A stretch of DNA of 15,754 nt. Source: a virus. Below the pieces are notes generated by a model. The model had not been told where the DNA came from. It searched no databases and saw only the letters and a list, made by a program, of their open reading frames with translations. Positions within the stretch are counted from its first letter, which is position 1, and every line of letters starts with the position of its first letter. The stretch is taken from the UHGV virus genome UHGV-0069791, one strand, 5' to 3'. This document shows positions 980 through 1,249 of this stretch, piece by piece. The translations under genes and the position numbers were made by a program.

Positions 980-1102
980 GTTTCTTATCCATTGTTAAGG
1001 GCATACCTACACAATTATTTTTATTGGAGATGAATAATCAACCGTTTACAATCGTAAAAAATCAAATATGCTGTTAAGAGTGGTTACTTCGCCACACAAC
1101 TT

Positions 1103-1128
1103 AAACCCGCCGCTGAGCGGTTTTTTTG
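1103..1128 (+). terminator. Short hairpin (CCGC-TGA-GCGG) flanked by an A-tract and T7 run; candidate bidirectional/intrinsic terminator, possibly tR'-like
   Basis: AAACCCGCCGCTGAGCGGTTTTTTTG at 1103-1128. The 4-5 bp stem is weak; the A-run before and T-run after are classic terminator flanks. Confidence 0.4.
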
Positions 1129-1249
1129 TACCTGTAAACTTGGTGCAGTACAGTAAACACGCTGGTGGTCGTGAATACTGACCTTTTATCTTGCTGGCTT
1201 TTTAGACAAGAGTTATTGGTATGTCATGTTAACCAGAAGGGAAAAAGAC

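What the first reader, a model, noticed from the sequence alone, without database searches (positions are those of the whole stretch)
980..1135. Candidate displaced late promoter / short leader / terminator module (pR'-tR'-like)
Downstream of the lipoprotein gene there are promoter-like hexamers (for example TTGGAG-17 nt-TACAAT around 1026-1054), then about 50-70 nt later an A-tract/hairpin/T7 terminator at 1103-1128. This resembles the pR' short-leader/tR' arrangement on which Q acts. If correct, the methyltransferase and the lysis genes are Q-dependent. The additional terminator-like hairpins at 2661-2688, 4531-4555, 12340-12359 and 14769-14792 would then all be read through by Q-modified polymerase.
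Basis: inference. Interest (0 to 1): 0.45.

Follow-up and report, generated by a model that had tools for sequence, protein, structure and literature searches.

The report
Displaced Q-dependent late promoter module
This stretch is the phage's late-gene promoter, its antiterminator (Q) docking site, a short leader and a weak terminator, moved about 600 bases from the Q gene by an inserted backward-facing gene; it is an ordinary member of the type known from Shiga-toxin phage 933W and the E. coli K-12 prophage DLP12.

Summary
Window 1044-1132 aligns without large gaps (79% over 90 nt) to the annotated pR'/qut/first-terminator region of phage 933W. The conserved promoter is TTTACA (1045-1050), a 16-nt spacer, then TATGCT (1067-1072), with a start at about A1079.

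Across 80 distinct relatives, the -10 positions T-12, A-11 and T-7 are nearly invariant, while -10 to -8 vary freely. A 14-bp dyad centred at -27.5 (window TTTACAATCGTAAA, 1045-1058) changes in step with the helix-turn-helix segment of the Q protein across at least 8 classes. This holds even where 0.5-3 kb of unrelated DNA separates Q from the site. I read this dyad as the Q-binding element.

The leader is about 49 nt. It has a conserved 5' hairpin (1080-1095) and a hairpin plus U7 terminator (1109-1127). That terminator is weak here (-6 kcal/mol, against about -12 in relatives).

Separation of Q from pR' by backward-facing cargo is common: 97 of 152 loci, including DLP12 in K-12.

Nothing here is experimental. 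The pause element is unresolved. Verdict: a new member of a known kind, of modest interest.

The parts
83..448 (+). Q antiterminator gene (121 aa from the ATG at 83; PF06530, Q21/Q933W family, QuuD/933W-like short form)
   Evidence: Pfam PF06530, E 2e-51. Matches the Q21 PDB chains 6p18/6jnx at E 7.5e-9. Annotated as 'antitermination protein Q' in the identical phage PhiR40_1. 82-89% DNA identity to quuD.
491..519 (+). Terminator-like hairpin GGGGAG..CTCCCC followed by ATTTTATTT, directly after Q. It would stop early rightward transcripts before they enter the antisense cargo gene.
   Evidence: Listed in the scan (491-510). Its function is inferred.
533..979 (-). Antisense cargo gene: a 148-aa predicted lipoprotein (lipobox ISGC) inserted between Q and pR'
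   Evidence: ORF; annotated as a hypothetical CDS in PhiR40_1; translation read. No Pfam, NCBIfam or PADLOC family.
1014..1041 (-). Candidate divergent promoter of the lipoprotein gene (TTGATT, 16 nt, AATAAT on the - strand)
   Evidence: scan, 9 of 12 matches. A consensus match only, untested.
1024..1052 (+). Present, but its -35 lies in cargo-specific DNA and is not conserved in relatives.
   Evidence: L009 and L053 differ upstream of position 1045.
1045..1058 (.). Inferred Q-binding element: 14-bp imperfect dyad TTTACAATCGTAAA centred at -27.5, overlapping the -35 hexamer
   Evidence: Unique in the window. The dyad centre is fixed 23 bp upstream of the leader block in all classes. The dyad class co-varies with the Q helix-turn-helix segment (NMI 0.87 against a shuffle maximum of 0.21).
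1045..1072 (+). Late promoter pR': -35 TTTACA (1045-1050), 16-nt spacer with an A-tract at 1056-1060, -10 TATGCT (1067-1072)
   Evidence: Aligns to the annotated 933W pR' TTTACG-16-TATCAT. In 80 distinct relatives: T-12 78/80, A-11 79/80, T-7 80/80, G-6 79/80.
1079..1079 (+). Inferred transcription start (A, 7 nt after the -10)
   Evidence: Counting 258 nt back from the U-run of the second terminator in Sakai Sp5 gives the aligned A, within about 5 nt (PMC7547250; sequence).
1076..1082 (+). Candidate sigma-dependent pause element AAGAGT(G), at -3 to +3. Unresolved.
   Evidence: T1075, A1076, A1077 and T1081 are invariant in 55 distinct dyad-anchored leaders. The A...T spacing matches the A-11/T-7 spacing of a -10 element. 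The position is unusually early, so this is inference only.
1080..1095 (+). Conserved 5'-proximal leader hairpin GUGGU-UACUUC-GCCAC (+2 to +17)
   Evidence: Folded. 90.5% of cells are paired, against 20-68% for slid controls. Pair 9-18 is GC in 20, AU in 18 and GU in 8 sequences. The U.G pair is possible only on the + strand RNA.
1109..1127 (+). tR'-like intrinsic terminator: GCCGC-UGA-GCGGU followed by U7. The leader RNA is about 49 nt.
   Evidence: Hairpin energy is only -6.3 kcal/mol against about -12 in relatives. 96 of 103 distinct relatives have a hairpin plus U-run, with the median U-run start at +44 and 56 different hairpin sequences.
1250..2656 (+). First genes downstream: a small ORF (1250-1453) and an N6/N4 DNA methyltransferase (1604-2656)
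2663..2688 (+). Stronger terminator (-12.2 kcal/mol) between the methyltransferase and the holin (2724-2939). It is the first robust barrier ahead of the lysis genes.

Best explanation
Window 1045-1127 is the phage's Q-dependent late control region (pR' with its Q-binding site, a short leader, and tR'), of the 933W/DLP12 type.

Proposed mechanism: sigma-70 polymerase starts at about A1079 from TTTACA-16-TATGCT. Without Q it makes a roughly 49-nt RNA that ends, probably inefficiently, at the hairpin/U7 at 1109-1127. When Q (83-448) accumulates, it binds the 14-bp dyad TTTACAATCGTAAA at -34 to -21 through its C-terminal helix-turn-helix. It loads onto polymerase held near the promoter and travels with it. 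Polymerase then ignores this terminator and those at 2663, 4530, 12340 and 14769, and so expresses the methyltransferase, lysis and head genes.

The module sits 596 nt from the Q stop codon because an antisense lipoprotein gene, with its own flanking signals, occupies the gap between Q and pR'. That gap receives neither late transcription nor, if the post-Q hairpin works, early read-through.

Shown here by computation: the homology, the conservation pattern, the co-variation and the geometry. Inferred: Q binding, pausing, loading, termination efficiency and read-through.
For: 1. Window 1044-1132 aligns to 933W at 79% over 90 nt, E 4e-15. It covers the record's annotated pR', putative qut and first terminator.
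2. dRNA-seq and Term-seq in the Sakai Stx2a prophage give a 258-nt pR' RNA (PMC7547250). Counting back from the U-run in the Sakai sequence places the start at the A that aligns with window 1079.
3. In 80 distinct upstream sequences, anchored only on the leader block, T-12, A-11, T-7 and G-6 are 78-80/80 while -10 to -8 vary.
4. A palindrome with a fixed centre at -27.5 falls into at least 8 classes. Each class is paired with one type of Q helix-turn-helix segment. NMI is 0.87 against 0.50 for the Q N-terminus and 0.49 for downstream DNA, and 0.88 when only loci with intervening cargo are counted. The window's own pairing, SDCWVGRLL with TTTACAATCGTAAA, recurs behind three different cargos (window, L053, L009).
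5. In E. coli E5 (L011) the same module lies 44 nt after a Q stop codon with no insert. In 933W the gap is 17 nt.
6. 96 of 103 distinct leaders carry a hairpin plus U-run, with 56 different hairpin sequences.
7. DLP12 in K-12 has quuD, then IS5/porin (antisense), then the module, then essD. A Q-type antiterminator is reported to control that lysis operon (reference 27 cited in PMC7918800).
Against: There are no transcript or binding data for this phage.

The terminator hairpin is weak here (-6.3 kcal/mol). In Sakai the mapped 3' end of the pR' RNA is at a second terminator that the window lacks. So the homologous first hairpin is not proven to terminate.

No convincing pause element could be assigned. 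The loop hexamer TACTTC lacks a conserved T at the -7-like position, and the well-conserved AAGAGT overlaps the start site (-3 to +3), earlier than any characterised sigma-dependent pause element I know of.

The dyad overlaps the -35 region and is an inverted repeat. The solved Q21 element is a direct repeat nearer the -10, so Q21 structural details cannot simply be transferred.

The Sakai start-site transfer rests on counting back from the terminator, because the paper's coordinates refer to another record version.

The first large locus set was collected with the leader motif itself, so conservation of that motif in that set is circular. The Q-anchored set was used to correct for this.
Confidence: 0.85

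Rival explanations
1. The functional late promoter is the reader's TTGGAG (1024-1029)/TACAAT (1047-1052), starting near 1059 and giving a roughly 70-nt leader. TATGCT would then act as the downstream -10-like pause element at about +9 to +14, a phage-82-like layout.
For: Both hexamers exist with a 17-nt spacer, and TACAAT is a good -10. TATGCT, with its invariant T/A...T signature, could in principle be a pause element rather than a promoter -10.
Against: TTGGAG lies in cargo-specific DNA and is missing from L009 and L053, which have the same Q class and dyad. The position of TACAAT holds no -10-like hexamer in the other dyad classes (for example AACGCGTACGCAAA) or in the GTAC subclass. In E. 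coli E5 only 44 nt separate the Q stop from the leader block. The 258-nt RNA length in Sakai fits a start 7 nt after TATCAT, not one upstream of it.
Confidence: 0.06
2. The module is an inherited relic that no longer controls late genes in this phage. Late transcription starts elsewhere, for example just upstream of the holin, or depends on read-through from the early operon.
For: The hairpin is degraded relative to relatives (GCGGG to GCGGT, -6.3 against -12 kcal/mol). Q and the module are separated by an insert.
Against: The Q class and dyad class still match, and the -10 signature is intact. No second copy of the dyad or the leader block exists in the window. 2657-2723 contains a terminator but no promoter-like site in the scan. 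The same weak hairpin variant sits behind the commonest leader variant, found in 44 loci. The phage record is a complete genome, apparently of an isolated phage.
Confidence: 0.04
3. The promoter is real but works mainly as a constitutive, Q-independent promoter for the small ORF and the DNA methyltransferase, because the leader terminator is leaky. Q is needed only to pass the stronger terminator at 2663-2688 and those beyond.
For: The terminator is weak. The Stx-phage pR' is reported to be always active in lysogens (PMC7547250 abstract), and its RNA was mapped 258 nt downstream, past the homologous first hairpin. The next strong + strand terminator lies after the methyltransferase.
Against: This refines the main explanation rather than replacing it. 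Termination efficiency cannot be read from the hairpin energy alone, since U7 and a flanking A-tract are present. There are no expression data.
Confidence: 0.3
4. The palindrome at 1045-1058 is the operator of some other regulator, not Q. Its association with the Q type only reflects shared ancestry of linked DNA.
For: Q and the site are linked, so part of the association must be phylogenetic. No binding data exist. The solved family member Q21 binds direct repeats, not inverted ones.
Against: The association holds when 0.5-3 kb of unrelated, varying cargo separates the two (NMI 0.88). It is much tighter for the helix-turn-helix segment than for the Q N-terminus or downstream DNA (0.87 against 0.50 and 0.49). 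Class D combines the window-type Q N-terminus with a different helix-turn-helix segment and a different palindrome. No other gene is consistently linked.
Confidence: 0.05

Closest known systems
pR'-qut-terminator region of Stx2 phage 933W / Sakai prophage Sp5 (Q933, PF06530)
   Same: It has the same promoter layout (TTTACG/A, 16 nt, TATCAT/TATGCT). It has the same dyad position, the same leader block TAAGAGTGGTTAC.T.GCCAC and a homologous first hairpin AACCCGCC..GCGGG plus T run. Identity is 79% over 90 nt. The Q proteins are alignable end to end and share a helix-turn-helix cluster.
   Different: In 933W the module starts 17 nt after Q; here it starts 596 nt after Q, behind an antisense gene. 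The 933W dyad is the perfect palindrome TTTACGATCGTAAA with recognition helix SDTCIGKRL; the window has TTTACAATCGTAAA with SDCWVGRLL. The 933W leader continues to a second terminator (258-nt RNA processed to the StxS sRNA, PMC7547250). The window has no counterpart of that part.
DLP12 cryptic prophage of E. coli K-12: quuD ... nmpC(IS5) ... essD
   Same: It has the same displaced arrangement: a PF06530 Q, then antisense cargo (a porin gene), then the module TTTACGTACGTAAA..TATGCT..TAAGAGTGGTTACTTCGTCAC..hairpin, then the holin. A Q-type antiterminator is reported to control this lysis operon (reference 27 in PMC7918800).
   Different: The dyad subclass differs (central GTAC, helix SDGYIGKRL) and so does the cargo. 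DLP12 has a sigma-E-type promoter about 355 nt upstream of the module; this was inferred by mapping the published reporter primers. I could not read the primary Q(DLP12) paper, so I do not know which site it assigns to Q.
Phage 21 pR'21 / Q21 (structures 6P18, 6JNX)
   Same: Same protein family (PF06530). The Q-binding element lies upstream of the -10, spans 14 bp and is made of two 6-bp half-sites 8 bp apart. The leader is short (about 45 nt in the identical SfI sequence) and ends in a hairpin plus U-run.
   Different: The Q21 element is a direct repeat TGAGCA-AA-TGAGCA at -25 to -12, with a pause element TAAGCT at +2 to +7. Here the element is an inverted repeat at -34 to -21 overlapping the -35. 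The Q protein is about 40 residues shorter than Q21 (121 against 162 aa). The HMMER alignment to Q21 stops at residue 99, before its loop and second helix.
Lambda pR'/qut/tR' (6S RNA) with Q-lambda (PF03589)
   Same: Same logic: a constitutive promoter, a promoter-proximal Q loading site, an early terminator, then a long late operon with internal terminators.
   Different: The Q protein family is unrelated. The lambda leader is longer (6S RNA, about 194 nt, from my own knowledge). In lambda, Q and pR' are adjacent.

Membership tests
Q-dependent late regulatory cassette, Q21/Q933W family (definition in 10.1101/651190 and PMC9388147) | Q protein of Pfam PF06530 | tested here: met
   PF06530 E 2.1e-51 over the full profile. 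Q21 PDB chains match at E 7.5e-9 and 3e-10 with a profile.
Q-dependent late regulatory cassette, Q21/Q933W family | Sigma-70 promoter (pR') heading the late operon | tested here: met
   Homology to the annotated 933W pR'. T-12/A-11/T-7 are 78-80 of 80 in relatives. The start is consistent with the Sakai dRNA-seq length. No transcript data exist for this phage.
Q-dependent late regulatory cassette, Q21/Q933W family | Q-binding element next to the promoter, specific for the resident Q | tested here: met
   The dyad at -34 to -21 co-varies with the Q helix-turn-helix class. This is a computational test only; binding could not be tested.
Q-dependent late regulatory cassette, Q21/Q933W family | Sigma-dependent pause element (-10-like) in the initially transcribed region | tested here: inconclusive
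   AAGAGT (1076-1081) has an invariant A and T at the right spacing but lies at -3 to +3. TACTTC (+7 to +12) has a variable last base.
Q-dependent late regulatory cassette, Q21/Q933W family | Intrinsic terminator shortly downstream of the promoter | tested here: met
   Hairpin plus U7 at 1109-1127. 96 of 103 relatives have one. It is weak here, -6.3 kcal/mol.
Q-dependent late regulatory cassette, Q21/Q933W family | Transcription unit directly follows the Q gene | tested here: not met
   596 nt and an antisense gene lie between the Q stop (448) and the -35 (1045). The same is true of 97 of 152 related loci, so adjacency is typical of textbook cases rather than required.
Q-dependent late regulatory cassette, Q21/Q933W family | Late (lysis and morphogenesis) genes downstream on the same strand | tested here: met
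   Holin, DUF1327, lysozyme and Rz. The long + strand ORF series runs to 15.5 kb.
Q-dependent late regulatory cassette, Q21/Q933W family | Q-dependent read-through of the terminator | not testable with these tools
   Needs in vitro transcription or reporter assays.
StxS-type pR' leader (258-nt RNA processed to a 74-nt Hfq-binding sRNA; PMC7547250) | Leader extends to a second terminator and contains the StxS sequence | tested here: not met
   Similarity to 933W ends at the first hairpin. No match to 933W positions 1390-1600 anywhere in the window. No Rfam hit above threshold.
Phage 21 pR'21 architecture | Direct-repeat TGAGCA element at -25 to -12 and TAAGCT pause element at +2 to +7 | tested here: not met
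   The window has an inverted repeat at -34 to -21 and no TGAGCA repeat.

The most novel reading that the evidence does not exclude
The short (QuuD/933W-type) branch of the Q21 family may work with an architecture not described for any solved Q protein. Four features set it apart.

1. A 14-bp inverted-repeat binding site centred at -27.5 that overlaps the -35 hexamer.
2. At least eight specificity classes that can be read from the recognition helix.
3. A -10-like element straddling the start site (-3 to +3), which would imply loading at an unusually early pause.
4. A conserved 5' leader hairpin.

In addition, the gap between Q and this site may be a transcriptionally insulated pocket. Lambdoid prophages would use it as a hotspot for backward-facing, lysogen-expressed cargo, including candidate defence genes.
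Probability: 0.4. Interest if true: 0.55.

Novelty: new member of a known kind. Interest (0 to 1): 0.3.

Why it matters
For this phage, the result fixes where late transcription should start and which site Q should use. That is needed to annotate it and to predict which genes are lysogen-expressed and which are late.

More generally, the comparison gives a testable recognition code, pairing Q helix type with dyad type, for a Q subfamily that includes the clinically important Q933 of Shiga-toxin phages.

It also shows that the textbook layout, in which pR' directly follows Q, fails in about two thirds of the sampled loci of this subfamily. Annotation pipelines and stx-expression typing schemes that look for pR' next to q should take this into account.

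The occupied gap may be a useful place to look for prophage cargo and defence genes.

Tried and rejected
1. I first misread the hit coordinates. Its query was window:60-1260, so they are offset by 59. I briefly placed the conserved block at 1013-1066; re-mapping corrected it to 1072-1125.
2. Pfam, NCBIfam and PADLOC gave nothing for the 148-aa lipoprotein or the 67-aa ORF.
3. Rfam at a permissive threshold gave only sub-threshold chance hits.
4. A single-sequence AlphaFold model of Q was unusable (pLDDT 43) and I did not use it.
5. Plunkett 1999 (933W) and Rueggeberg 2013 (Q of DLP12) are not in the library.
6. I mapped the published DLP12 reporter primers, hoping for an experimental +1 at the module. 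The numbering points instead to a sigma-E-like promoter about 355 nt upstream, so it neither supports nor contradicts the module.
7. I considered a promoter -10 in the A-tract (AAAAAT) with TATGCT as the pause element. I rejected it because class C lacks the T and the Sakai RNA length does not fit.
8. I considered TACTTC in the hairpin loop as the pause element. Its last base is not conserved.
9. I looked for a module directly after Q (449-532) and before the holin (2657-2723) and found none.

Full report
OBSERVATION. TTGGAG is at 1024-1029 and TACAAT at 1047-1052 with a 17-nt spacer. An A-tract, a small hairpin (1109-1121) and a T7 run (1121-1127) follow, and there are four further + strand hairpin/T-run sites at 2663, 4530, 12340 and 14769. 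Promoter-like hexamer pairs are not above chance in this window (11 found against 15.4 +/- 4.0 in shuffles). Terminator-like sites are enriched (41 against 15.0 +/- 3.7). Hexamers alone therefore prove nothing, and the case has to rest on comparison.

CONTEXT. The window is identical over its first 2.7 kb to Escherichia phages PhiR40_1 and PhiR55_1. It encodes the following, in order:
- a PF06530 Q antiterminator (83-448, E 2e-51), distantly related to the solved Q21 and 82-89% identical in DNA to quuD of DLP12;
- an antisense 148-aa lipoprotein gene (533-979);
- the region in question;
- a small ORF, a DNA methyltransferase, a phage-21-type holin, a lysozyme, Rz, and then head genes, all on the + strand.

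HOMOLOGY TO A KNOWN pR'. Window 1044-1132 aligns to phage 933W at 79% identity over 90 nt (E 4e-15). In the 933W record that stretch is annotated as pR' (TTTACG-16-TATCAT), a putative qut and a 'possible rho-independent terminator'. The window equivalents are TTTACA (1045-1050), a 16-nt spacer, TATGCT (1067-1072) and the hairpin/U7.

Sy et al. (PMC7547250) mapped the pR' start by dRNA-seq in the Sakai Stx2a prophage. They mapped the 3' end of the RNA 258 nt downstream. Counting 258 nt back from the last U of the second terminator in the Sakai sequence lands on the A that aligns with window A1079, which lies 7 nt after the -10. If the 3' end lies earlier in the U-run, the start moves by up to 5 nt. 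The paper's coordinates refer to another record version, so this transfer is indirect.

COMPARATIVE SETS. A scan of viral contigs for the leader block TAAGAGTGGTTACNTNGCCAC gave 120 loci. A separate scan of one genome per species, anchored on the Q protein and not on DNA, gave 80 loci from Escherichia, Citrobacter, Pantoea, Xenorhabdus, Photorhabdus, Proteus, Yersinia and others. Of the 130 motif-bearing loci, 111 had a PF06530 Q upstream; most of the rest lacked enough upstream sequence. In the Q-anchored set, about half carry a recognisable copy of the block downstream of Q. Most of the others show the same layout with a more diverged leader.

In 80 distinct 40-nt upstream sequences, T-12 is 78/80, A-11 79/80, T-7 80/80 and G-6 79/80. 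Positions -10 to -8 are free. There is an A-tract at -23 to -19 and an A-rich stretch at -43 to -39. This is the signature expected of a working sigma-70 -10 element, with A-rich DNA upstream in the position of an UP element.

L009 and L053 have the same Q class and the same sequence from 1045 onward but different DNA to the left.

THE Q-BINDING ELEMENT. Between -34 and -21 every locus has a palindrome whose centre is fixed 23 bp upstream of the leader block. Its sequence falls into classes, and each class goes with one type of C-terminal helix-turn-helix segment of Q:
- TTTACAATCGTAAA with ..[10 protein letters not shown] (the window, L053, L009);
- TTTACGATCGTAAA with ..SDTCIGKRL / SDTHIGKRL (933W and Xenorhabdus relatives);
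- TTTACGTACGTAAA with ..SDGHIGKKL / SDGYIGK(K/R)L (including DLP12), with one exception (L148);
- AACGCGTACGCAAA with ..SDGTIRKEL;
- GCGGTCCGC with ..DEKLIRIEI;
- TGGAATTCCA with ..SHTHVLKRL;
- GTAATTAC with ..SHNEVAKRL;
- TGTTATAACA with ..SLNQVVIRL.

Normalised mutual information between dyad class and helix-turn-helix cluster is 0.87 (shuffle maximum 0.21). It is 0.50 for the Q N-terminus and 0.49 for DNA downstream of the leader. It is 0.88 when only loci with intervening cargo are used. Class D joins a window-type Q N-terminus to a different helix-turn-helix segment and a different dyad.

Linkage inflates such numbers. Even so, the contrast with flanking segments, and the persistence across unrelated inserts, argue for functional coupling. 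I therefore read 1045-1058 as the Q-binding element. The helix assignment rests on the HMMER alignment to helix H5 of Q21 and on the descriptions in PMC6606751. No usable structure model was obtained.

Compared with Q21, the element has the same 6+2+6 bp size. It differs in being an inverted rather than a direct repeat, and it sits 9 bp further upstream, over the -35.

THE LEADER. From the inferred start the RNA reads AGUGGUUACUUCGCCACACAACUUAAACCCGCCGCUGAGCGGUUUUUUU. In 55 distinct leaders collected by the dyad and not by the leader motif, the stem 1080-1084/1091-1095 is paired in 90.5% of cells, against 20-68% for slid controls. One pair is G-C in 20, A-U in 18 and G-U in 8 sequences. The U.G pair, present in 48 of 55, is possible only in + strand RNA. 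This supports a conserved 5' hairpin and the rightward direction of transcription. Its role is unknown; candidates are a pause hairpin, 5'-end protection, or something specific to Q.

The same alignment shows T1075, A1076, A1077 and T1081 invariant. AAGAGT(G) therefore carries the A...T(G) signature of a -10-like element. However, it lies at -3 to +3, earlier than the characterised pause elements of lambda, 21 and 82. The loop hexamer TACTTC (+7 to +12; TACATT in 933W) has a variable last base. I leave the pause element unresolved and give the experiment that would decide it.

THE TERMINATOR. 96 of 103 distinct leaders have a GC-rich hairpin followed by a U-run. The median U-run start is +44, and there are 56 different hairpin sequences. 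The feature is therefore conserved by structure, as expected for tR'.

In the window the hairpin is a degraded variant (GCGGG to GCGGT) of only -6.3 kcal/mol, against about -12 to -14 in cdtI-like, DLP12, 933W and SfV copies. In Sakai the mapped pR' RNA runs 258 nt to a second terminator, so it reads past the homologous first hairpin. A roughly 49-nt RNA could also have been missed by those libraries. The first strong + strand terminator in the window is at 2663-2688, between the methyltransferase and the holin. Some Q-independent expression of the small ORF and the methyltransferase is therefore plausible, while the lysis genes should still need Q.

DISPLACEMENT. 97 of 152 loci have more than 120 nt between the Q stop and the module. 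There are 85 distinct inserts of 0.5-3 kb, and the longest ORF is antisense in 73 of them. Examples include a KAP-family NTPase matching the defence candidate PDC-S20 and an OLD/ATPase-Toprim-like protein.

Where there is no insert, the module starts 17 nt (933W) or 44-47 nt (E. coli E5) after Q. E. coli K-12 DLP12 has the displaced form: quuD, IS5/porin (antisense), the module, then essD. A Q-type antiterminator is reported to control that lysis operon.

Phages with an unrelated, longer Q of about 250 aa (SfV, Ayreon, mEp460, Stx2c phages) share DNA with the window only from the terminator (1104) rightward. This fits the idea that everything to the left of the terminator is specific to the Q type.

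MECHANISM AND STATUS OF EACH STEP. Shown by computation: homology to an annotated pR' whose start site was mapped; the -10 conservation signature; dyad/Q co-variation; the leader hairpin; the terminator-like structure; and the insert between Q and the module. Inferred from the established lambdoid Q paradigm (10.1101/651190, PMC6606751, PMC9388147): Q binds the dyad, loads on polymerase held near the promoter, and renders it resistant to 1109-1127 and to the later terminators. Not established: the pause site, terminator efficiency, and whether the post-Q hairpin (491-519) and the antisense orientation really insulate the cargo gene.

KNOWN OR NEW. The module is a new member of the 933W/DLP12 kind, and the displaced layout already exists in K-12. 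I did not find three things described in the papers I could read: the dyad classes matched to Q helices, the 5' hairpin, and the frequency and orientation of cargo in the Q-pR' gap.

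Noticed in passing
window 491-519 (+): A hairpin GGGGAG..CTCCCC followed by ATTTTATTT lies directly after the Q stop codon. It is oriented to terminate rightward (early) transcripts before they run antisense into the lipoprotein gene.
   Followed up: no
window 533-979 (-) and 1014-1041 (-): A 148-aa predicted lipoprotein (lipobox ISGC) has no hit in Pfam, NCBIfam or PADLOC. A candidate promoter for it (TTGATT-16-AATAAT) abuts the pR' -35/dyad back to back.
   Followed up: partly
loci L001-L215 (gap between the Q stop and the dyad); window 449-1044: The Q-pR' gap is a cargo hotspot. 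It is occupied in 97 of 152 loci, with 85 distinct inserts, 73 of them antisense. Inserts include a PDC-S20-type KAP NTPase (L010) and an OLD/ATPase-Toprim-like protein (L094), which suggests defence or exclusion cargo.
   Followed up: partly
L003 1938-1969 and 2615-2644 (Ayreon); same layout in L005 and L007: In phages with the longer, roughly 250-aa Q, the terminator homologous to window 1104-1134 is present twice and flanks + strand ORFs. This suggests the terminator acts as a recombination joint for inserting cargo.
   Followed up: no
L190, L191, L200, L201, L208 (Yersinia): Two tandem copies of the dyad plus -10 module are present. The first overlaps the 3' end of an extended Q ORF, and the second lies about 100 nt downstream, after a terminator-like hairpin.
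   Followed up: no
L163, L170/L171, L197 and L202-L209 (Xenorhabdus, Morganella, Proteus): The Q ORF runs into the dyad and its stop codon lies inside the palindrome, so the Q coding sequence and its own binding site overlap.
   Followed up: no
L216 about 6505-6541 (E. coli K-12 DLP12): Mapping the published reporter primers (-121 to +650) puts that paper's +1 about 355 nt upstream of the Q-type module, next to a sigma-E-like GAACTA..TCACT pair. DLP12 therefore seems to have a stress promoter stacked upstream of pR'.
   Followed up: partly
window 1250-1453 (+): The small ORF between tR' and the methyltransferase is conserved across phages with different Q types. NCBI's annotation of L009 calls its homologue a 'TrmB family transcriptional regulator'. 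It has no Pfam or NCBIfam hit here.
   Followed up: no
window 1100-1103 (CTTA) and 1075-1078 (TAAG): A CTTA motif about 5 nt after the leader hairpin is kept even in diverged leaders (Xenorhabdus, Proteus, Morganella). It is complementary to the invariant TAAG just upstream of the inferred start. Its role is unknown.
   Followed up: no
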